Shown here: in pieces, positions 16,681 to 23,121 of the stretch
Layout of the letters: every line of letters begins with the position of its first letter
Position numbering within the stretch: the first letter of the stretch is position 1
NCBI GenBank assembly: GCA_041652635.1
Contig: JBAZGW010000001.1
Location: forward strand, 1 to 62,852
DNA: 62,852 bases
Reading direction: 5' to 3'
DNA from: Candidatus Omnitrophota bacterium
Lineage (GTDB): Bacteria; Omnitrophota; Gorgyraeia; Gygaellales; Profunditerraquicolaceae
Made by a program: the position numbers and the translations under genes
Notes under the pieces: model-generated
What the model was told of the DNA's origin: nothing
Databases searched by the model: none
What the model saw: only the letters and a program-made list of their open reading frames with translations

Positions 16681-17082
16681 TCATTCCCGGCCGGAATTTA
16701 GGCCGGCTTGGATATTCTTGCCTACCCCCTTGATTATCTCCGCCACATAGGCATCTTTTTTTCCAAGTTTAGCGTAACAACGCGCGATCAATATATTTAT
16801 CTCCCCGCCCTGCTCATCGAATTGCTGCGCTTTTCTTAATTCCCCCAAGGCAAGCCGGAATCGATCCCGCTTATAATAACGTTCGGCACGCTGTAAATGC
16901 GCGCTATACGGAAGGTATAAAACCTTTTCCTTGATCACTTGCCCATATAACGTCAGGAACTCGGCATAACGGATACGCATTTTATAGGGCATAAGCACGC
17001 CTATCGCCAAAAGCAGGAAATAAGCCGCCTTGGCTAAACTATAACGTGAATATTCCAGGGCAACCCAGCCCTTAATCCTCAT
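16681..17082 (-). CDS. single-pass membrane protein with TPR-like repeat (last gene of the maturation operon)
   Basis: 133 aa with a TM helix (AAYFLLLAIGVLM) and TPR-like helices (RAERYYKRDRFRLALGELRKAQQFD...ILIARCYAKLGKKDAY). Its start overlaps the upstream gene by 11 nt. Confidence 0.5.
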   Translation of the reverse strand: MRIKGWVALEYSRYSLAKAAYFLLLAIGVLMPYKMRIRYAEFLTLYGQVIKEKVLYLPYSAHLQRAERYYKRDRFRLALGELRKAQQFDEQGGEINILIARCYAKLGKKDAYVAEIIKGVGKNIQAGLNSGRE

Positions 17083-18220
17083 AGAGTCTCCCTGTGGAAT
17101 AATTACGGACCTTCCCTTTTAAATAATCTTCCACTCGGGAAAGGAGAAAATCCCTTTTCCTGCGGTGAAAGGCGAACATCTTTTTTTCATATTCCCCCTG
17201 CGCCAGGAGCGTGTTGTGTTTATAAAACACAAACCGGCTGTAATCCTGATAATCGAGGCACAGGCACTCTTGCGTGCAGGACGGCTGGATCTTCCAGGTA
17301 TCCTCCGTCCATTTTATATCTTTACGTTCAGATATTCCCAAGGCATAAAGGTTATCCTCGCGTTCTTCCCTGCTTTTATGATACACCGGATAGCGCAGGT
17401 CAATCCCGAATTTTTGATAAAGTTTCTTCATCTCGCCGATTATCCGTTCATTCTGCGAGGGATCGCTCATCTCAATATTGGAGCCGTCATAAGCCGTTTT
17501 GACCTTATTATCCAGGCAATAAAGTATCGTGCACCAATGCATGGCTAACTTACATAATCCGCAGGTAAGCAGCAAAATAAGCCCGTGCCGGAAAAGGTCC
17601 CGGGCATACTCGCGGTAACAGATCTCCCTGTAAAATTCGTCGATCCTGATAAATGTGTGGCTAAAATCATTATCCTTGAACAAATCCCGCAATTTTCCGG
17701 CGTTCACGGAAGAACCTTGCATACCGTAGAACCCCAATCTATCGTATGTGATAAGGCGTATAGCCTCGTAGTCTCGGGCGGCGCAAATGGCCGTGTTCGT
17801 GGAATCGGTCCCTCCGGAGAAAAGCACCACGGCGCTTTTACCTGCGCTGACCGCAGGACAAACGCGGAAAGGCATAACTAAAGACTGGGCGGATAACCGC
17901 CGCTTCTTATCCCCGCGCAACAGGATCACCGCCAGAAAAACGATCATTAGGATATTGGAAAACAACAACCCCAGGGTTAATATCTTATCCGCGTGCTTAG
18001 ATAAATAACCCCTTGTTCGCTTCTTCCCCAGGGAAGGGAACAATTCCAATCGGTTGCTTTCATACAGCCAAACGACTACGGCTGAATTAAGGCCTAAGTT
18101 CCACCAGGGTTTAATCCTCAGCGCCAGGATCAACGTATAAACGCCCAGCGCGAGGCCAAAGGTAATGATAGCCGCCGGGGCGGTCTTTTTACGGCCGTTA
18201 TTCCTGCAAAAAACGCTCAT
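17072..18220 (-). CDS. membrane-anchored PP-loop ATP pyrophosphatase (adenine nucleotide alpha-hydrolase superfamily)
   Basis: About 3 N-terminal TM helices, then the PP-loop VVLFSGGTDSTNTA and a CGLCKLAMHWC cysteine motif. The ATG at 18220 is preceded by GAGAGG; the track start at 18226 is a TTG. Confidence 0.65.
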   Translation of the reverse strand: MSVFCRNNGRKKTAPAAIITFGLALGVYTLILALRIKPWWNLGLNSAVVVWLYESNRLELFPSLGKKRTRGYLSKHADKILTLGLLFSNILMIVFLAVILLRGDKKRRLSAQSLVMPFRVCPAVSAGKSAVVLFSGGTDSTNTAICAARDYEAIRLITYDRLGFYGMQGSSVNAGKLRDLFKDNDFSHTFIRIDEFYREICYREYARDLFRHGLILLLTCGLCKLAMHWCTILYCLDNKVKTAYDGSNIEMSDPSQNERIIGEMKKLYQKFGIDLRYPVYHKSREEREDNLYALGISERKDIKWTEDTWKIQPSCTQECLCLDYQDYSRFVFYKHNTLLAQGEYEKKMFAFHRRKRDFLLSRVEDYLKGKVRNYSTGRLYED

Positions 18221-18250
18221 TAGCAAACCTCTCTATCCGGTAATCTTTGC

Positions 18251-19117
18251 TTAAATCGGTATTTCCGGCTGATAAACCAGCCTGTCAATGCCTTGCGCGG
18301 CCAAATCCCGCTCTCTGGGAAGAATATCATTTCTCAAAAACAGCGTATTCCCTTTTTTATAGATCAGCCCGGGCATATTCTTATTCTTCAGCTTAACGCT
18401 ATACCGCAGGCATTTCTTCGAGCAGCTTGAAATAGCGCAAGTGAATTTTTTCGCTTTGCGAAAAGGGTCGGCCGAACAAAGACGGGTTGTGGTGATATAG
18501 GCGAACGGAAAATATAATGAAACCTGAAAACGCCCCTTAGGGATACGGATATTCATCCCCTGGAGCAAATTATCCACTTCCGCCCTGCGGATCCGGTATC
18601 CGGCAAGAAAAGCACGGATAGCGGCTATATTTATATTCGTTTCCTTGAAATAAGCGGCTAAGCCAGCGGGAACTCTTCTCGAAAAGATGATATCGTATCC
18701 GGAGGAAGCTCTTCTTAGAACTACCCGGGGCCTGCCCGCGCCGGAGATCAAACCCGCTATCCGGGGGTCGCGCTTCTGCTTGGTCAAGAGGCGGCCTAAG
18801 ACAGGGCGCAAACCGGGGTATTCTTCATTTATCAGGCTCAACACCCCGTAATCATTGACGATGACTTCGCAGGACTCCCCGTTACCCAGTAAGAAAGAGA
18901 ACAGCTTATCCAGTTTTGCCATCCCGGCATCAGTCACATAAGGCGTCACCAGGGAAAAACCTGTTTTATTCTTCTTGCAGTAATCTCTTACTTTCTCCAC
19001 TTCGGCAACGGCAGGTATTAATTTTTCGCAGAATTCATTACCGAAATATATCCGTCCGTATTCCTGTCCGGCGTATTTTAAATTCTCTGCCCGGGAAATG
19101 AACAAGACCCTTTCCAC
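18251..19117 (-). CDS. UbiV-like small partner of a peptidase-U32 pair (pair c)
   Basis: 288 aa and paralogous to 24862-25710 and 26729-27601. Shared blocks are YFGxEFCxxLIP, (L/V)(T/S)P(Y/F)VT, CEV(I/V)VND(Y/W)GVL and GRLL.(K/Q)Q.R.P, plus a C-terminal C-x13-16-C-x3-C cysteine set. A GTG start is preceded by GGGAGG and overlaps the stop of the large partner by 1 nt. Confidence 0.6.
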   Translation of the reverse strand: MERVLFISRAENLKYAGQEYGRIYFGNEFCEKLIPAVAEVEKVRDYCKKNKTGFSLVTPYVTDAGMAKLDKLFSFLLGNGESCEVIVNDYGVLSLINEEYPGLRPVLGRLLTKQKRDPRIAGLISGAGRPRVVLRRASSGYDIIFSRRVPAGLAAYFKETNINIAAIRAFLAGYRIRRAEVDNLLQGMNIRIPKGRFQVSLYFPFAYITTTRLCSADPFRKAKKFTCAISSCSKKCLRYSVKLKNKNMPGLIYKKGNTLFLRNDILPRERDLAAQGIDRLVYQPEIPI

Positions 19118-20175
19118 TATCCGCCTCCCGCAGTATTAAAAACCGAAGGATAATAGCAGGAAAAACCGGAACACGCGGAGTATTTATAAGTAACGCAGTA
19201 TAACCGCCTGACTTTACGGATAAACTCTTGCCTGCCGATCCCGGGATTATCGGAAAGTATACGCAGGGCGCCGCGCACGAACCCGGTATCAGCGACCTTT
19301 TCCAGCAGGGGCATCCCGCGTTCTACGATTTTAAGGCAGCTTATATTCATAACGGCAAAATCGTATATGGCGCAGGCACCGCAGGACTTCCGGGGTCCCG
19401 CCCCCGGGGCGATTTTCTTCCTCTGAAACGGGGGTTCTTTTACCAGGCGTTCTCCGCTACCGTTTAATACTCGCGCTGAGAAATCCAGCTCACAGCCATG
19501 TCCGCCGTAACCGGGGTCATAAGAACTGTAGAAACGCGTTTTTTTATCTTTACCGCCGGTTTCAGCGGCTATATCCGCGGCATCAAAAGAAAGGCCGTGA
19601 TAAAAAGTACACAGCCCGTCGATATTCGGGCAGCGGGTATTCATTATAAACACCTCCAACTCCCCCTCCGAAGACACCTTCCGGGCTATTCCGGCGATCT
19701 CTTTTATCGTCAGAAGGCGGTCCAGAACCACGCGCGTTACCCCTGCCTTGGCGTAAAAAAGCGCCGCCCTTGAATTAAAGGTCACCCCGCCGGTCCCCAT
19801 ATGCACTTGCGCAAAAACACCCCCCTTACTCAACACAGGCAATAGCCCGATATCAGAGATGATCAGCCCGTCGGCTTTTATATGCTTGAGTTCTTCTATT
19901 ATCTTCATGACCAAAGGGTATTGCTTCTCAGTATACAAACCGTTCATTACCACGAAAACAGGCACACCGGCGCCGTGGGAGAGACGGATCGCTTCGCGCA
20001 GATCATCAAAACAGGAGAAATTGGCCCGGCAGCCTTCTCTGCGGTTAAGGGTATCGAACATGCCGAACTTTTCCTTCCACTCGGCAGGCACTATCCCGCA
20101 ATACAGTTCATCCGCCCCCGCTTTAACCAACGGCAGCACTTCCTTTACTCTTGAGAACGGCGATAATATTTTCAT
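19117..20175 (-). CDS. peptidase-U32-family protein, UbiU-like large partner (pair c)
   Basis: MKILSPFSRVKEVLPLVKAGADELYCG... is a TIM-barrel-type U32 N-terminus. EVFIMNTRCPNIDGLC reproduces the E-x-F-x5-C-x4-G-x-C spacing of the U32 signature. Extra conserved Cys are CGACAIYD and C-x4-C-Y-Y. Start trimmed to the ATG at 20175 by alignment with its two paralogs. Confidence 0.72.
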   Translation of the reverse strand: MKILSPFSRVKEVLPLVKAGADELYCGIVPAEWKEKFGMFDTLNRREGCRANFSCFDDLREAIRLSHGAGVPVFVVMNGLYTEKQYPLVMKIIEELKHIKADGLIISDIGLLPVLSKGGVFAQVHMGTGGVTFNSRAALFYAKAGVTRVVLDRLLTIKEIAGIARKVSSEGELEVFIMNTRCPNIDGLCTFYHGLSFDAADIAAETGGKDKKTRFYSSYDPGYGGHGCELDFSARVLNGSGERLVKEPPFQRKKIAPGAGPRKSCGACAIYDFAVMNISCLKIVERGMPLLEKVADTGFVRGALRILSDNPGIGRQEFIRKVRRLYCVTYKYSACSGFSCYYPSVFNTAGGG

Positions 20176-20219
20176 TGCTAAGCCTTTTATGGCGCCCCGC
20201 GTTTTAAAAACAACCGTTC

Positions 20220-21638
20220 CTATCCCCTCGGGCAAACAGTCCCGTCAGTCTCTTTGATCTTGCGTATTTCTTCATCACACAACGCTTGCCGTCCTGCGCG
20301 GGAATAACATTTCATCAAAAGGAACCTGAGCGCTTTTTTAACGGGAGCGAATTCACAGGCTTTTTTCAAGGCGTTCACCGCTTCTTTATATTGCCCCAGT
20401 TTATAATAACATTCTCCCAATATCTCATAATAGGCCCCGTTACGCTCATCCGATCCTATCGCCCGCAGGGCTTCTCTGAGCGCCGTTGTGTAGCTTCCCC
20501 TCCCGTAATGCCAGCAAAGCACCCGCTCTTTCAGTCTCCGCGTGAATTCATCGCGAAAGATCTTTCTCCTGCTTCGCGGCATGCGGCCGGAGATAATCCC
20601 GTTGAATGCTATCGAAACGGCCTCCCCGCAAGTATTCCTGGCCAAAGAATCCCGCAGATATCGCATCGCTTTCTCTGGATCGCCGGGGCTGAAATTATTA
20701 GATTTGACCAATTCTTCCAGCCACTCCTCACGGCTCAGATAACCGGAGATAAATTCCCGGTAAGCGCTCGCTTTAGGCTCAAATATGGACGGATCAAATA
20801 ATTTACGCGCGCAAGGAAGCTGAAAAGCCAAATGACACTCGCTGCCGGGAGTGCGAAAATAATGTTCCGGCAGGGAGAAACCGATCTTGCGCAAAAGGCG
20901 CATTTTACCGGGTTTATCGTATCCGCAGGCAAGCGGCAGATTGATCTCCATAACATCCGGGCGAAAATCCAGAACACTGGACGGACGCAGGCTCGCCGCG
21001 TGTTCTCTGATAAAACCCGCTGACTTGAACGCGCGCGCGGATAGAACGCGCCCCGAAGCGTTAAAATAGGCGTAATTGTTCCCCACAACGACTTTTTCGA
21101 TCCCCAAAAGCGCGGCGGCTTTTTCCATCCCCCACCAAAGGAACGACTGATCCCCCACTCCGCATAATTTGCACCAGGGATAATCGGCGATCACCCGGTC
21201 CTCCACTTTGTTCAGGTCGGCGTAATCCGACAAAAAAACAGCTTTCAGGTCTATTTTCACTTTTATCAAAGGGATACGATACTTAGCGATGAACTTTTCC
21301 GCATTGCCTTCGATCGCCGGCCTGCTCCAGCCGAAGTCGAACATAAGCGCGGTCACGTCCAACTTTAATTCTTTTTTCGCCAGGTATAAAGCAAGCGTAC
21401 TGTCCGTGCCTCCGGAATACAGCGCGAGCACCTTAGAATGCTTCTTATAATTCAGGAATAACCGGAGTTGCCGCTTCCATAACCTCGCGCGATCATTCCC
21501 GCTTACGGACAAACTACCCGCGCATTCACGGCAAAGCCCGGAAGGAACAGCGTTTTTCTTAGCCGCCTCCGCCGGATAAAGCAGGCAATGCCCGCATACT
21601 TTGGTTAAAGGCACAAAATCAGGATTATTTCTTGCCAT
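20220..21638 (-). CDS. zinc-ribbon / PP-loop ATP pyrophosphatase / TPR fusion protein
   Basis: N-terminal CGHC...CREC, PP-loop LALYSGGTDSTLALY, PWCKLCG, and C-terminal TPR repeats (YYEILGECYYKLGQYKEAVNALKKACEFAP...). The ATG at 21638 is preceded by GAGGGG. Confidence 0.65.
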   Translation of the reverse strand: MARNNPDFVPLTKVCGHCLLYPAEAAKKNAVPSGLCRECAGSLSVSGNDRARLWKRQLRLFLNYKKHSKVLALYSGGTDSTLALYLAKKELKLDVTALMFDFGWSRPAIEGNAEKFIAKYRIPLIKVKIDLKAVFLSDYADLNKVEDRVIADYPWCKLCGVGDQSFLWWGMEKAAALLGIEKVVVGNNYAYFNASGRVLSARAFKSAGFIREHAASLRPSSVLDFRPDVMEINLPLACGYDKPGKMRLLRKIGFSLPEHYFRTPGSECHLAFQLPCARKLFDPSIFEPKASAYREFISGYLSREEWLEELVKSNNFSPGDPEKAMRYLRDSLARNTCGEAVSIAFNGIISGRMPRSRRKIFRDEFTRRLKERVLCWHYGRGSYTTALREALRAIGSDERNGAYYEILGECYYKLGQYKEAVNALKKACEFAPVKKALRFLLMKCYSRAGRQALCDEEIRKIKETDGTVCPRG

Positions 21639-21672: not shown

Positions 21673-23121
21673 TCACTGTTCTCCGTTCAAATGCGCCCTG
21701 GCCAGTCCGCGGTAACACTTCAGGTTAAAAACAGTGTCCTTATCATCGGCGAACGCCCCAAGCGCAGCCTCATAAATATCCTCCGCCAAACGGCTATGCC
21801 CTGTCTTCTCATATTGCCCAGCCAGGTTTAACAAATACTCCCTCTTTATGCCCTGGAGGCCGTAAACACGCAGGAACTTTCTAAGGATAAGGCCCGCTTT
21901 AGGCTCCTGACGGGATAAAAGGCAGTCCTTCTGCAATTTAAAATAAGGGTCTGTAAAACCGCAATGCCTATGCAAGGCTCCCGGCACCGTGACAATGACG
22001 GACGGGATACGCAATACCGGATGAGTAACCTCGGTTACGATCACGGGCAGGCCGTGATATTCGAGTTTCTTCACGGCAGTCATTATTTCACTCCTGAAAT
22101 TACCGTCCGCGTGATCGGGCAGAGAGGAGAATGGGACCGGTTTTGTCTTCTTGCACAAGTATTCCGCCTCTAAGAAAGAACAATAAAAAGAGAATCCGCA
22201 GCTTCTGTATAAACACGTTTGCCGGGATAACCCCTGGCTTCTGTTCTGCGCCAGTTCGCTGAGGGCGCGCAGCAAAGCGATATCCCTGGAGACGGAGGCC
22301 CCCGCGGCGGCGTTGAAGCGCGCCGCACCCCTGGATGCCCGGTCATAAACCAACACCCCGACCGTTGGGACGCCGATCTTATGGGAAAAATCCCGGATGA
22401 ACAGCCTAAGCCCCGACTTAACGAAACGCGAAATAATGTCCCGCGCGGCGTTGTTCTTCACGGAAACAACGTCCACTAAAGGCGTGATTATTCTATTCCC
22501 GACGATATCCGCGATGTTATGGCGTTCAATAACCTCGCATAACCCCTGCAACACCGCCTCTTCCAGGCAGTTCCCGGAAGCAAACCCGTTCGTGGTCGAA
22601 GTGAACCAGTCCAGCGGGAATAAAAACGGCTTATTTTCAGTTAAGGAGAACGAGTGGTATAATTTCAGAGGCCGCTTTTTGAGCTCTCCGCAGATAAAAC
22701 GGTCTTTGCGATAGCGCTCCTGCCAGGAAAAAGGGATGATCCTTACAGCCCGCTTATGATCTTCGCCACCCTGAAAACCTGCCCTGTAATTACTTTTATT
22801 ATCTAGAAACGCCTGACAACTGAAACGCTCCACGAATTCCATCAACGCGCTTGCCTTGGATAACTCCGCGTTCCTGCCCTTTCCGTAAGAGATACGCTTA
22901 AAAAACTCGCCTTCCGCGAAACCATCCTTAGCCTTAACGGTAATTTCACACTTATACACCGGAAGGCGCAAGACATCGCAGGCATCGATCCTCTTTAGCG
23001 CCACCCCCAGCGGCGGAGAGAGTTTACGCAGAGCGGACAAGGCGCGCCGCACAGTCTCGCCCGCGGGAAGAGATTTACCCGCAAGCTCTCCCCGGCCCCT
23101 AACGATATTACTTAGTTTCAT
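21673..23121 (-). CDS. YcaO-domain protein with C-terminal TPR region (YcaO-2)
   Basis: YcaO hallmarks SYGKGRNAELSKASALMEFVERFS and TTNGFASGNCLEEAVLQGLCEVIERH. The C-terminal helical repeats end in ...CYRGLARAHL. No adjacent E1-like, Ocin-ThiF-like or TfuA gene. Confidence 0.85.
   Translation of the reverse strand: MKLSNIVRGRGELAGKSLPAGETVRRALSALRKLSPPLGVALKRIDACDVLRLPVYKCEITVKAKDGFAEGEFFKRISYGKGRNAELSKASALMEFVERFSCQAFLDNKSNYRAGFQGGEDHKRAVRIIPFSWQERYRKDRFICGELKKRPLKLYHSFSLTENKPFLFPLDWFTSTTNGFASGNCLEEAVLQGLCEVIERHNIADIVGNRIITPLVDVVSVKNNAARDIISRFVKSGLRLFIRDFSHKIGVPTVGVLVYDRASRGAARFNAAAGASVSRDIALLRALSELAQNRSQGLSRQTCLYRSCGFSFYCSFLEAEYLCKKTKPVPFSSLPDHADGNFRSEIMTAVKKLEYHGLPVIVTEVTHPVLRIPSVIVTVPGALHRHCGFTDPYFKLQKDCLLSRQEPKAGLILRKFLRVYGLQGIKREYLLNLAGQYEKTGHSRLAEDIYEAALGAFADDKDTVFNLKCYRGLARAHLNGEQ

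What the first reader, a model, noticed from the sequence alone, without database searches (positions are those of the whole stretch)
17072..21638. Two unusual PP-loop ATP pyrophosphatases with CxxC motifs bracket the third U32 pair, next to a partner-less YcaO
**What the sequence shows**
- 20220-21638 encodes a zinc ribbon (CGHC...CREC), a PP-loop (YSGGTDST), PWCKLCG and C-terminal TPR repeats.
- 17072-18220 encodes about 3 TM helices, a PP-loop (FSGGTDST) and CGLCKLAMHWC.
- Both lie immediately downstream of YcaO-2 and flank U32 pair c.

**Established knowledge**
- PP-loop enzymes adenylate carbonyl or carboxyl groups.
- Members with CxxC/Fe-S sites (TtcA/TtuA/NcsA type) or sacrificial Cys (LarE) insert sulfur.
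- Asn-synthetase-like members make lactams or amides.
- YcaO-dependent thioamidation normally needs TfuA, which is absent here.

**Inference (speculative)**
- These proteins may supply sulfur or ammonia to YcaO-activated or adenylated positions of the peptide.
- The TPR and TM fusions suggest a scaffolded, membrane-associated maturation complex together with the TPR-tailed YcaOs and the final TM-TPR protein (16681-17082).
Basis: partly seen in the sequence, partly recalled or inferred. Interest (0 to 1): 0.62.

Follow-up and report, generated by a model that had tools for sequence, protein, structure and literature searches.

The report
Two cysteine-rich PP-loop enzymes in peptide cluster
An uncultured anaerobe's peptide natural-product gene cluster carries two unrelated, uncharacterised ATP-using "PP-loop" enzymes whose conserved cysteines and relatives suggest they swap an oxygen for sulfur; if so, ribosomal peptides would have a second sulfur-insertion route besides the known YcaO/TfuA one.

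Summary
Both ORFs, all quoted motifs and the gene order are real (best starts: ATG 21638 and ATG 18220).

**PP2 (20220-21638)**
- It belongs to a very rare family: 9 full-length representatives among 1.84 billion.
- It combines a NASAT/TtuA-type N-terminal zinc ribbon, an intact PP-loop and a TPR tail.
- Its Cys set (C157, C160, C269, C277) is lost all together in two divergent members.
- C157/C160 align with the [4Fe-4S] ligands C142/C145 of NcsA.
- Four of five genomic contexts are the same kind of radical-SAM/PqqD/ScmC/U32 peptide cluster.

**PP1 (17072-18220)**
- It belongs to the uncharacterised DUF7411 family.
- Its closest solved relative is YcfA, the thioamide-forming enzyme of 6-thioguanine (profile E 5e-20; fold TM 0.84).
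- Unlike YcfA, it has three invariant Cys (C222, C225, C317) spaced as in TtuA/NcsA.
- It forms a conserved pair with the small TPR protein at 16681-17082.
- In relatives this pair lies between a U32 gene and its partner gene, usually with a SufS-type cysteine desulfurase.

**Reading**
- Both are most likely iron-sulfur-dependent, adenylating O-to-S exchangers acting on the peptide. No chemistry was tested.
- They track U32 genes more closely than YcaO genes.
- Neither is a housekeeping QueC or tRNA-thiolation orthologue.

The parts
20220..21638 (-). PP2: zinc ribbon + PP-loop ATP pyrophosphatase + Cys-rich site + C-terminal TPR (472 aa from ATG 21638)
   Evidence: Family alignments. AlphaFold model pLDDT 74.5. 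Foldseek top hits are TtuA, NASAT and mmLarE.
21522..21596 (-). PP2 N-terminal tetracysteine zinc ribbon CGHC...GLCREC (C16, C19, C37, C40)
   Evidence: Invariant in all 13 family members. The window's copy fits the NASAT signature CXXCXn[GN]XCXXC, shown to bind Zn in LpNASAT (PMC10607449). Translation checked.
21396..21416 (-). PP2 PP-loop SGGTDST (76-82)
   Evidence: S76, G77, G78 and S81 are invariant.
21162..21173 (-). PP2 CKLC (C157, C160), candidate Fe-S ligands
   Evidence: The profile alignment places them on NcsA C142/C145, which are [4Fe-4S] ligands (PMC10067955). They are lost together with C269/C277 in P0120 and P0121.
20811..20837 (-). PP2 C269...C277 (GSECHLAFQLPC), candidate third or fourth ligand
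   Evidence: Invariant in the 10 closer members. P0127 keeps C269 but not C277. This region has low confidence in the model.
20244..20606 (-). PP2 C-terminal all-helical TPR tail (346-466)
   Evidence: Pfam TPR_2, TPR_8 and ANAPC3. Helices 356-466 in the model. Weak similarity to the TPR partner of PP1.
17072..18220 (-). PP1: membrane domain + DUF7411/YcfA-like PP-loop ATP pyrophosphatase (382 aa from ATG 18220)
   Evidence: Model pLDDT 79.6. Foldseek to YcfA gives E 5e-11 and TM 0.84.
17891..18184 (-). PP1 N-terminal membrane domain (residues 15-112, 2-3 helices)
   Evidence: In orthologues P0012-P0015 this domain is homologous to the separate ~120-aa membrane protein that follows DUF7411 genes elsewhere (E 1e-6 to 2.5e-8). 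The window's copy has an 11-aa deletion in its most conserved motif.
17798..17818 (-). PP1 PP-loop SGGTDST (137-143)
17552..17563 (-). PP1 CGLC (C222, C225), invariant in the family; absent from YcfA
   Evidence: YcfA has L-G-EKLAIH at the position of CGLCKLAMH.
17276..17278 (-). PP1 C317 (QPxCxQ), the third invariant Cys, 92 residues after C225
   Evidence: The spacing resembles NcsA (C145 to C233, 88 residues).
16681..17082 (-). Small TPR protein (133 aa), conserved partner of PP1; its start overlaps the end of PP1 by 11 nt
   Evidence: 57% identical to the gene after PP1 in L004. A TPR gene follows PP1 in L006, L010, L011/L012 and L107/L108.
18251..20235 (-). U32c and its partner, the gene pair the two PP-loop genes flank
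   Evidence: In relatives PP1-TPR lies between a U32 gene and its partner gene.
21673..23121 (-). YcaO2 with TPR-like tail, directly upstream of PP2
   Evidence: Pfam YcaO E 5e-53. No TfuA, ThiF-like or dehydrogenase partner in the cluster.

Best explanation
[quoted passage not shown] Both are dedicated tailoring enzymes of this radical-SAM/PqqD/ScmC/U32/YcaO peptide cluster.

Proposed mechanism (inferred, not shown):
- Each enzyme uses its intact PP-loop to adenylate an oxygen, releasing AMP and PPi. The oxygen would be an amide or lactam carbonyl, or a carboxylate, on the precursor peptide or on an already modified residue.
- Each carries a Cys-ligated metal site built like the three-Cys [4Fe-4S] site of TtuA, NcsA, TtcA, CtaC and M. 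maripaludis LarE.
- That cluster would hold a hydrosulfide, which displaces AMP. The net result is O-to-S exchange, giving a thioamide, thiolactam or thiocarboxylate.

Sulfur source: in relatives a SufS-type cysteine desulfurase is encoded next to PP1. This genome has no recognisable desulfurase, ThiS or TfuA. Sulfur would therefore come from free sulfide, as proposed for methanogens that lack desulfurases.

Adaptors and partners:
- The short TPR modules are inferred to be adaptors. One is fused to PP2 and one is a separate partner of PP1.
- The PP1-TPR pair is a satellite of a U32 heterodimer rather than of YcaO.

Shown versus inferred:
- Shown: fold, motifs, conservation and gene neighbourhoods.
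- Inferred: Fe-S binding, sulfur as the incoming atom, and the peptide as substrate.
For: **PP-loop fold**
- SGGTDST is present in both proteins.
- The Rossmann-type models hit PP-loop enzymes only.

**PP1**
- The DUF7411 profile matches YcfA at E 4.8e-20. Foldseek to YcfA gives E 5e-11 and TMt 0.84.
- YcfA adenylates a lactam carbonyl and makes a thioamide (PMC12494993).
- C222, C225 and C317 are invariant. The YcfA Q135 equivalent (Q258) is also invariant.
- A SufS-family desulfurase that keeps its catalytic Cys is adjacent in about 32 of 91 family loci, and in 4 of 5 membrane-fused orthologue contexts.
- The window's PP1 sits in a well-supported clade (99/93) in which 7 of 8 rows have U32 neighbours.
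- The order U32-[SufS]-PP1-TPR-U32 partner recurs in L006, L011 and L107.

**PP2**
- C157/C160 align with NcsA ligands C142/C145.
- The spacing D80/C157/C160/C269 resembles CtaC D77/C154/C157/C284. CtaC is an Fe-S thioamide synthetase acting on a peptide backbone.
- All four Cys are lost together in P0120 and P0121.
- Foldseek top hits are the [4Fe-4S] enzymes TtuA and mmLarE, plus NASAT.
- PP2 is kept after the ABC exporter in the homologous cluster L001-L003/L093. It also lies in rSAM/PqqD/ScmC/U32 clusters in L007 and L008.

**Sulfur source and core peptide**
- Free sulfide serves TtuA, NcsA and CtaC in vitro, and methanogens without desulfurases are thought to use it.
- The precursor core is Gly/Ser/Cys-rich and has no Asp or Glu. 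That leaves backbone carbonyls, the C-terminus or modified residues as targets.
Against: - No biochemical test exists, and neither product nor substrate is known.
- PP2 residues 259-316, which hold C269 and C277, are low-confidence.
- PP2 has four co-varying Cys. The site could therefore be a closed 4-Cys Zn or Fe-S site without the free iron needed to carry sulfur.
- PP2's best named family by sequence is the N-acetyl sugar amidotransferases, which transfer nitrogen.
- Sequence alignments to NcsA and TtuA are weak (E 0.006-0.08).
- More distant DUF7411 members lie among SGNH/TPR, carbamoyltransferase and B12-radical-SAM genes, not peptide genes. The family substrate is therefore not always a peptide.
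- In one related lineage SufS-PP1-TPR stands alone, far from the cluster.
- The window's PP1 has lost 11 residues of the conserved membrane-domain motif, and its genome has no SufS partner.
Confidence: 0.48

Rival explanations
1. Nitrogen transfer instead of sulfur. One or both enzymes adenylate a carbonyl or carboxylate and add ammonia, giving an amidine, amide or nitrile. This would work as in N-acetyl sugar amidotransferases (WbuX/PseA/NASAT), QueC or NAD synthetase. The cysteines would bind structural zinc only.
For: - PP2's best NCBIfam hit is TIGR03573 WbuX (E 4.8e-7, residues 14-135).
- Its zinc ribbon fits the NASAT tetracysteine signature.
- LpNASAT 8wex gives the highest TM-score among the fold hits (0.37-0.39).
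- Pfam QueC touches both proteins.
- QueC uses a Cys4 zinc site (general knowledge).
Against: - The WbuX match is 29.5 bits against a cut-off of 203 and covers only the N-terminal third.
- No glutaminase (HisH/WbuY-like) or other ammonia source is present in the cluster.
- The CxxC of PP2 lies on the NcsA Fe-S ligands, not on a known Zn site.
- A canonical WbuX-type protein (L106) lacks that CxxC.
- The PP1 family is coupled to a cysteine desulfurase, not to an amidotransferase.
Confidence: 0.17
2. TfuA surrogate. The PP-loop proteins do not act on the peptide themselves. They mobilise or carry sulfide to the amide that the partner-less YcaO enzymes phosphorylate, replacing the missing TfuA/ThiS system.
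For: - Both YcaOs lack TfuA, and the genome has no TfuA or ThiS.
- The related cluster L001 has a TfuA-YcaO fusion plus ThiS and ThiF, and no PP1.
- In L013 a YcaO gene overlaps the first of two PP1 genes by 4 nt.
- PP2 follows YcaO2 directly.
Against: - Both proteins keep complete PP-loops, so ATP-dependent adenylation of a substrate is expected.
- PP2 coexists with TfuA-YcaO/ThiS/ThiF in L001, so it is not a replacement.
- PP1 or PP2 occur with no YcaO in the sequenced neighbourhood in L007, L011/L012 and L107.
Confidence: 0.1
3. PP1 and its TPR partner form an independent sulfur-transfer module for a non-peptide substrate, such as an envelope glycan, a lipid or a cofactor. On this reading the module merely lies at the end of the operon, and only PP2 belongs to the peptide pathway.
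For: - SufS-PP1-TPR stands alone in L004/L005 and in the ERZ1426817 contig.
- Most distant DUF7411 genes lie with SGNH/TPR hydrolases, carbamoyltransferase, B12-radical-SAM and GT9 genes.
- PP1 and TPR are the last two genes before the cobalamin riboswitch.
Against: - Within the window's own clade, 7 of 8 rows have U32 neighbours.
- In L006, L011 and L107 the PP1-TPR pair sits between a U32 gene and its partner gene.
- L010 places it among ScmC, PqqD, rSAM and YcaO-TPR genes.
- In the window it is 24-30 nt from the U32c partner gene.
Confidence: 0.15
4. Housekeeping tRNA thiolation or queuosine enzymes that happen to be nearby.
For: Weak Pfam QueC hits (22-25 bits) and weak TtuA, ThiI and MnmA hits.
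Against: - All equivalog scores are far below their cut-offs (QueC about 20 vs 150; TtuA 16 vs 450).
- Only the first ~60 of 210 QueC positions match.
- PP2 is present in 1 of 401 genomes of the phylum.
- Only 9 representatives of the PP2 family exist worldwide.
Confidence: 0.02

Closest known systems
YcfA of the YcfA-YcfC system (6-thioguanine biosynthesis, Erwinia amylovora; PDB 9KQ6; PMC12494993)
   Same: - Closest solved relative of PP1: family profile E 4.8e-20, Foldseek TM 0.84, about 20% identity.
- PP-loop enzyme that adenylates a lactam carbonyl and ends in a thioamide.
- Works with a class-V PLP enzyme encoded beside it.
- PP-loop Asp (D19 / D141) and Q135 / Q258 are conserved.
   Different: - YcfA has no CxxC and no third Cys. 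It adds free L-cysteine, and YcfC, which lacks the persulfide Cys, cleaves the C-S bond.
- The PP1 family has three invariant Cys.
- Its partner in relatives is a SufS-type desulfurase that keeps the catalytic Cys.
- The guanine- and Cys-binding residues Y128, Q129, F132 and E134 are I, E, D and S in PP1.
- PP1 carries a membrane domain and a TPR partner.
CtaC, Fe-S-dependent thioamide synthetase of closthioamide (PMC6772006)
   Same: - PP-loop (AANH) enzyme with a three-Cys [4Fe-4S] motif that converts peptide backbone amides to thioamides using ATP and sulfide.
- No sulfur-mobilising enzyme is encoded in its cluster.
- Motif spacing D77/C154/C157/C284 resembles PP2 D80/C157/C160/C269.
   Different: - CtaC acts on carrier-protein-tethered non-ribosomal intermediates.
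- Here the context is a ribosomal precursor with an RRE (PqqD).
- PP2 adds a zinc ribbon and a TPR tail.
TtuA / NcsA / TtcA [4Fe-4S]-dependent tRNA thiolases
   Same: - Top fold hits of PP2 and second-best of PP1.
- N-terminal zinc finger (PP2), PP-loop, then CxxC about 80 residues later and a third Cys about 90-110 residues after that.
- The PP2 CxxC aligns with NcsA C142/C145.
   Different: - Family models score far below their cut-offs.
- No C-terminal zinc finger.
- No sign of RNA-binding regions, although this was not specifically tested.
- The genes sit in a peptide cluster.
N-acetyl sugar amidotransferases (NASAT; WbuX, PseA, LpNASAT 8WEX; TIGR03573)
   Same: - Best named sequence family for the N-terminal 120 residues of PP2.
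- Same tetracysteine zinc ribbon directly before the PP-loop.
- Chemistry is also replacement of an amide oxygen after adenylation.
   Different: - NASAT installs nitrogen (an amidine) on sugars and needs an ammonia source.
- PP2 matches only the N-terminal third.
- PP2 has extra conserved Cys and a TPR tail.
[4Fe-4S]-dependent LarE of Methanococcus maripaludis (PDB 8CNZ)
   Same: - Best PDB hit of PP2 by sequence (profile E 3.9e-8).
- PP-loop enzyme in which, per the PDB entry titles, a [4Fe-4S] cluster is bound.
- It turns a carboxylate into a thiocarboxylate (general knowledge).
   Different: - The match covers the PP-loop region only.
- The substrate is a pyridinium mononucleotide.
YcaO-TfuA peptide backbone thioamidation
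   Same: Same predicted outcome (O to S in a peptide) and the same cluster type. A TfuA-YcaO fusion with ThiS and ThiF is present in the closest homologous cluster.
   Different: YcaO activates by phosphorylation, not adenylation. TfuA, ThiS and ThiF are absent from this genome.

Membership tests
PP-loop ATP pyrophosphatase / adenine nucleotide alpha-hydrolase superfamily | SGGxDS PP-loop motif after the first beta-strand | tested here: met
   SGGTDST in both proteins. Conserved across both families.
PP-loop ATP pyrophosphatase / adenine nucleotide alpha-hydrolase superfamily | Rossmann-like alpha/beta/alpha fold | tested here: met
   AlphaFold models. All significant non-TPR Foldseek hits are PP-loop enzymes.
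[4Fe-4S]-dependent sulfur insertases (TtuA/NcsA/TtcA/CtaC) | CxxC about 75-80 residues after the PP-loop, aligned with the cluster ligands | tested here: met
   PP2 C157/C160 align with NcsA C142/C145 (ligands confirmed). PP1 C222/C225 lie 81 residues after D141 and are invariant. PP1 has no residue-level alignment to a ligand.
[4Fe-4S]-dependent sulfur insertases (TtuA/NcsA/TtcA/CtaC) | Third conserved Cys about 90-130 residues downstream that completes a three-Cys site | tested here: inconclusive
   PP1 C317 is invariant at +92. PP2 C269 (+109) and C277 co-vary with the CxxC. No alignment or 3D distance could be obtained, and PP2 may have four ligands.
[4Fe-4S]-dependent sulfur insertases (TtuA/NcsA/TtcA/CtaC) | Binds an oxygen-labile [4Fe-4S] cluster required for activity | not testable with these tools
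   Needs anaerobic purification and spectroscopy.
[4Fe-4S]-dependent sulfur insertases (TtuA/NcsA/TtcA/CtaC) | Scores over the curated family models (TtuA, TtcA) | tested here: not met
   NF049949 TtuA gives 16 bits against a cut-off of 450 for PP2 and no hit for PP1. They are not members of these tRNA families.
N-acetyl sugar amidotransferase (NASAT, TIGR03573) | Tetracysteine CXXCXn[GN]XCXXC zinc motif before the PP-loop | tested here: met
   PP2 has C16-x2-C19...G35-L-C37-x2-C40. The four Cys are invariant in the family. PP1 lacks the motif.
N-acetyl sugar amidotransferase (NASAT, TIGR03573) | Full-length match over the curated cut-off | tested here: not met
   29.5 bits against 203.2, covering residues 14-135 only. 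True relatives in the phylum score 179-242 bits.
N-acetyl sugar amidotransferase (NASAT, TIGR03573) | Associated glutaminase or ammonia-channel partner (WbuY/WbuZ, HisH/HisF-like) | tested here: not met
   No such domain appears among the genes of 16681-39089 or their flanks.
YcfA / DUF7411 (PF24167) | Sequence and fold relationship over the whole catalytic domain | tested here: met
   PP1 family profile against YcfA gives E 4.8e-20. Foldseek TMt is 0.84. Most homologues carry PF24167. The window protein itself is below the reporting threshold for PF24167.
YcfA / DUF7411 (PF24167) | YcfA substrate and L-Cys residues (R18, Y128, Q129, F132, E134) | tested here: not met
   These are T, I, E, D and S in PP1 by the alignment. 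PP1 is therefore not a YcfA orthologue.
YcfA / DUF7411 (PF24167) | Adjacent class-V PLP partner (YcfC-like) | tested here: inconclusive
   Present next to orthologues and about a third of family loci. There it is a SufS type with the catalytic Cys retained. It is absent from the window and from the 90%-complete genome.
QueC (7-cyano-7-deazaguanine synthase) | Full-length match and C-terminal Cys4 zinc site | tested here: not met
   Pfam QueC matches only profile positions 1-65 of 210, at 22-25 bits. TIGR00364 scores about 20 bits against a cut-off of 150.
YcaO-TfuA thioamidation system | TfuA (and ThiS/ThiF sulfur relay) encoded with the YcaO | tested here: not met
   No TfuA or ThiS anywhere in the genome by tblastn with the L001 proteins. 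The only ThiF-like match is a fragment on C88.

The most novel reading that the evidence does not exclude
The U32 heterodimer and the PP1-TPR(-SufS) module may form one machine that thiolates an unactivated position of a peptide without oxygen, in two steps:
- The U32 pair, whose family is known for O2-independent hydroxylation of quinones and RNA bases, installs a hydroxyl or oxo group, for example on a His, Trp or azole ring or on an alpha-carbon.
- The PP-loop enzyme adenylates that new oxygen and its Fe-S-bound sulfide replaces it.

The net result would be C-H to C-OH to C-SH, copying nucleobase chemistry (ho5U, s2U) onto a ribosomal peptide. PP2 would do the same, or would make backbone thioamides, giving a YcaO/TfuA-independent sulfur route in RiPPs.
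Probability: 0.12. Interest if true: 0.85.

Novelty: new variant of a known kind. Interest (0 to 1): 0.6.

Why it matters
- In ribosomal peptides, backbone sulfur is so far known to be installed by YcaO with TfuA. The only PP-loop thioamide synthetases known act on a nucleotide (YcfA) or on carrier-bound non-ribosomal peptides (CtaC).
- Two new PP-loop families embedded in RiPP clusters would add an adenylation-based, probably Fe-S-dependent, sulfur route to RiPP chemistry.
- The finding gives a first functional lead for the widespread DUF7411 family and its SufS and membrane partners.
- The repeated interleaving with U32 genes points to a functional coupling between two enzyme types otherwise known from RNA and quinone modification. 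That coupling would be of interest for anaerobic C-H functionalisation.
- The claim is directly testable by expression and mass spectrometry.

Tried and rejected
- **Desulfurase search.** tblastn with the SufS partner found nothing in the genome. A Pfam Aminotran_5 search then did ring. The hits are an AGXT-like aminotransferase (C19) and a DegT-like enzyme (C7), not desulfurases. 'No desulfurase' stands only with the 90% completeness caveat.
- **A suspected second PP1.** The 392-aa last gene of L008 is a radical-SAM homologue, not a PP1.
- **Metagenome scan for more PP2 loci.** It gave only one true relative (L093), which is the same cluster type as L001.
- **Measuring Cys distances.** Model coordinates are not exposed, and PP2 259-316 is low-confidence.
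- **C237 of PP1 as a fourth ligand.** It lies at the far end of the same predicted helix as C222/C225 (H222-239), so this is unlikely. That is an inference.
- **QueC, TtuA, LarE, MnmA or ThiI orthology.** Rejected on scores.
- **Literature and earlier notes.** No paper mentions DUF7411. None combines AANH, thioamide and RiPP, or peptidase U32 with YcaO/RiPP. Earlier scan notes found by sequence or by words: none.
- **Paralogy.** The two PP-loop proteins are not paralogues of each other.

Full report
**1. What is there**

All genes of the region lie on the minus strand. From 39089 down to 16681, Pfam and NCBIfam scans give this order:
- a GT-C glycosyltransferase
- an NTP_transf_5 protein
- a QueG-like Fe-S protein
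- a MiaB/RimO-like methylthiotransferase
- an HprK/ScmC-like kinase
- radical SAM 1, PqqD, radical SAM 2
- YcaO1-TPR
- U32 pair a, U32 pair b
- an ABC exporter
- YcaO2
- PP2
- U32 pair c
- PP1
- a 133-aa TPR protein

Downstream begins a cobalamin uptake and salvage operon.

The two PP-loop proteins share nothing beyond the PP-loop itself. Each is single-copy in the 1.58-Mb draft genome.

**2. PP2 (20220-21638)**

*Rarity*
- A word-indexed search of 5.8 billion proteins found 10 relatives.
- An exhaustive profile search of 1.84 billion representatives found 9 full-length members at E <= 1e-30. After that come only partial N-terminal matches.
- Among 401 genomes of the phylum, only the window's own genome has an orthologue.
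- Another 26 genomes have ~335-aa proteins that score 179 bits on the N-acetyl sugar amidotransferase model TIGR03573.

*Conserved residues*
- In the 10 closest members the invariant residues include C16, C19, C37, C40, the PP-loop, PWC157xxC160, C269 and C277.
- With more distant members added, the zinc-ribbon Cys stay invariant.
- P0120 and P0121 have lost C157, C160, C269 and C277 all together. P0127 keeps the first three.
- This correlated loss argues that these Cys form one site.

*Similarity to known enzymes*
- A profile of residues 1-345 aligns PWCxxCG onto 'npCsfCG' of M. maripaludis NcsA, positions 142-145. C142, C145 and C233 are the three ligands of its [4Fe-4S] cluster (PMC10067955).
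- The spacing also resembles CtaC, the Fe-S-dependent thioamide synthetase of closthioamide. CtaC has D77, C154, C157 and C284 (PMC6772006). PP2 has D80, C157, C160 and C269.
- The AlphaFold model (pLDDT 74.5, but below 50 for residues 259-316) hits [4Fe-4S] TtuA (E 3e-6), the Legionella N-acetyl sugar amidotransferase and [4Fe-4S] LarE.
- The N-terminal ribbon fits the zinc-binding NASAT signature (PMC10607449).
- PP2 is therefore a hybrid. It has a NASAT/TtuA-type ribbon, a PP-loop, a TtuA/NcsA/CtaC-like Cys site and a TPR tail. It reaches no curated family cut-off.

**3. PP2 contexts**
- The closest relative (68% identity; L001-L003 and L093) lies in a co-linear cluster. Its order is rSAM, PqqD, rSAM, YcaO-TPR, two U32 pairs, ABC, PP2.
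- That cluster continues with a 115-aa membrane protein, a U32, a 929-aa TfuA-YcaO fusion, ThiS and ThiF.
- L007 has rSAM, PqqD, ScmC, U32 and ABC genes beside PP2, with no YcaO within the 10 kb shown upstream.
- L008 has PP2, an rSAM-ScmC fusion, a U32 pair, YcaO-TPR and a B12-rSAM.
- L009 is otherwise unrelated but still has a U32 fragment 3 kb away.
- PP2 is thus a stable accessory of this cluster type. It is not a replacement for TfuA, because it coexists with TfuA in L001.

**4. PP1 (17072-18220)**

*Family and closest structure*
- 105 relatives were found. Four are membrane-fused orthologues of ~392 aa. The rest are 250-290-aa soluble proteins, mostly carrying Pfam DUF7411.
- The family profile matches one solved structure strongly: YcfA of Erwinia amylovora (E 4.8e-20). 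The PP1 model (pLDDT 79.6) superposes on YcfA with TM 0.84.
- YcfA adenylates C6=O of guanine nucleotides and adds L-cysteine. The PLP enzyme YcfC then cleaves the adduct to leave a thioamide (PMC12494993).

*How PP1 differs from YcfA*
- PP1 keeps the PP-loop Asp and the equivalent of Q135 (Q258, invariant).
- It does not keep the guanine- and Cys-binding residues.
- Unlike YcfA, the whole DUF7411 family has invariant C222 and C225 (TCGLCKLAMH) and C317 (QPxCxQ).
- The spacing (+81 from the PP-loop Asp, then +92) is that of TtuA/NcsA.
- C237 is nearly invariant. However, it lies at the other end of the same predicted helix, so it is unlikely to be a co-ligand.

**5. PP1 partners and contexts**
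- *TPR partner.* The 133-aa TPR protein whose start overlaps the end of PP1 is 57% identical to the gene after PP1 in L004. A small TPR gene follows PP1 in L006, L010, L011/L012 and L107/L108.
- *Desulfurase partner.* In 4 of the 5 membrane-fused contexts a 405-aa SufS-family cysteine desulfurase lies directly upstream. It scores E 9e-119 on TIGR01979 and keeps the RxGxHCA catalytic Cys.
- *Family-wide coupling.* In 80 loci from species-representative genomes, about a third of DUF7411 genes carry the same SufS subfamily within the locus (E down to 1e-144). The phyla are Bdellovibrionota, Omnitrophota, Elusimicrobiota, Planctomycetota, Myxococcota and others. The usual order is DUF7411, a ~120-aa membrane protein, then SufS.
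- *Origin of the membrane domain.* That small membrane protein is homologous to the N-terminal membrane domain of the fused orthologues (E 1e-6 to 2.5e-8). The 'TM fusion' is therefore an old partnership, not a new scaffold. The window's copy lacks 11 residues of its most conserved motif.
- *Phylogeny.* A maximum-likelihood tree places the window's PP1 in a supported clade (99/93) with L010, L006, L004, L011, L107 and two copies in L013. Seven of these eight rows have U32 neighbours.
- *Recurring gene order.* The order is U32, [SufS], PP1, TPR, U32 partner in L006, L011 and L107.
- *Other arrangements.* L010 places SufS-PP1-TPR beside a U32 pair, ScmC, PqqD, rSAM and YcaO-TPR. In L013 a YcaO gene overlaps the first of two PP1 genes.
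- *Stand-alone module.* In L004/L005, from the same samples as the L001-type cluster, the module stands alone on another contig.

**6. Sulfur supply in this genome**
- tblastn with the TfuA-YcaO fusion, ThiS, ThiF and SufS of the relatives finds no TfuA, ThiS or SufS. The only ThiF-like hit is a fragment.
- The Pfam Aminotran_5 hits are an AGXT-like aminotransferase and a DegT-like enzyme.
- The assembly is 90% complete, so absence is not proven.
- TtuA, NcsA and CtaC accept free sulfide in vitro. Methanococcales, which lack desulfurases, are thought to use it in vivo.

**7. Interpretation**
- *Shown:* two intact PP-loop enzymes, each with a conserved Cys constellation. Both are recurrently embedded in this cluster type. 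PP1 is tied to a TPR partner, to U32 genes and, in relatives, to SufS.
- *Inferred:* each adenylates an oxygen of the peptide or of a modified residue, and an Fe-S-bound sulfide replaces it.
- *Possible targets:* the core has no Asp or Glu. Candidates are backbone carbonyls (the core is Gly-rich), the C-terminal carboxylate, or an oxygen newly installed by the U32 enzymes.
- *Rivals:* nitrogen transfer (NASAT- or QueC-like), a role as sulfide donor for the partner-less YcaOs, and an unrelated role for PP1.
- *TPR similarity:* the TPR tail of PP2 resembles PP1's separate TPR partner more than it resembles the YcaO tails. This is weak evidence from a tiny database. It suggests both enzymes use a similar adaptor.

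**8. Novelty and verdict**
- PP-loop sulfur insertases are a known kind.
- New here are two uncharacterised families (one extremely rare), their placement in ribosomal-peptide clusters, the coupling to U32 pairs, and the SufS/membrane-protein partnership of DUF7411.
- No paper in the library covers these points.
- I rate this a new variant of a known kind, with moderate to high interest and no experimental support yet.

Noticed in passing
L014-L065 (e.g. L015:9992-12424, L044:9983-12429): A conserved triad of DUF7411 PP-loop protein, ~120-aa membrane protein and SufS-family desulfurase is widespread in Bdellovibrionota, Omnitrophota, Elusimicrobiota and Planctomycetota. It often lies among SGNH/TPR hydrolases, a carbamoyltransferase, B12-binding radical-SAM enzymes and GT9 genes. 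This is an uncharacterised sulfur-insertion system, probably acting on a non-peptide substrate.
   Followed up: partly
L001:13200-17118: The closest homologous cluster ends with a 929-aa TfuA-YcaO fusion that carries an extra ~280-aa N-terminal region, followed by ThiS and ThiF. None of these exists in the window's genome.
   Followed up: partly
Own genome contig C7:3390-5751 and 18324-19169; C7:220-1830 and 19860-21047: Three further U32 genes of the 'L001 377-aa' type and two PMT_2-like glycosyltransferases lie on another contig of the same genome. This may be a second related cluster. It holds no PP1 or PP2 copy.
   Followed up: no
Own genome contig C35:3468-4463: A third, more distant YcaO gene lies outside the window.
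   Followed up: no
L098-L105 (e.g. L098:1501-2511): 26 of 401 Omnitrophota genomes encode ~335-aa NASAT/WbuX-like proteins (179 bits, just under the TIGR03573 cut-off). These also carry a CxxC (ICHLCS) after the PP-loop and a later conserved Cys. Part of the 'amidotransferase' family may therefore be Fe-S enzymes.
   Followed up: partly
window 17891-18184: The membrane domain of the window's PP1 lacks 11 residues (RLSGRLYRxSPPL-type motif) that are conserved in all four orthologues and in the free-standing membrane partner family. The genome also lacks the SufS partner. The module may be partly degenerate here.
   Followed up: partly
L013:8034-11615: In an Elusimicrobia MAG a 675-aa YcaO overlaps by 4 nt the first of two tandem PP1-type genes. 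These follow three U32 genes, a U32 partner and two radical-SAM genes. This is the tightest YcaO/PP-loop coupling seen.
   Followed up: partly
L107:2929-3984: An unannotated 351-aa protein with no Pfam hit sits between the U32 gene and the PP1 homologue in the U32-X-PP1-TPR-U32 partner unit.
   Followed up: no
window 20244-20606 vs 16681-17082: The TPR tail of PP2 is more similar to PP1's separate TPR partner (about 31% identity over 52 aa) than to the TPR tails of the two YcaO proteins.
   Followed up: partly
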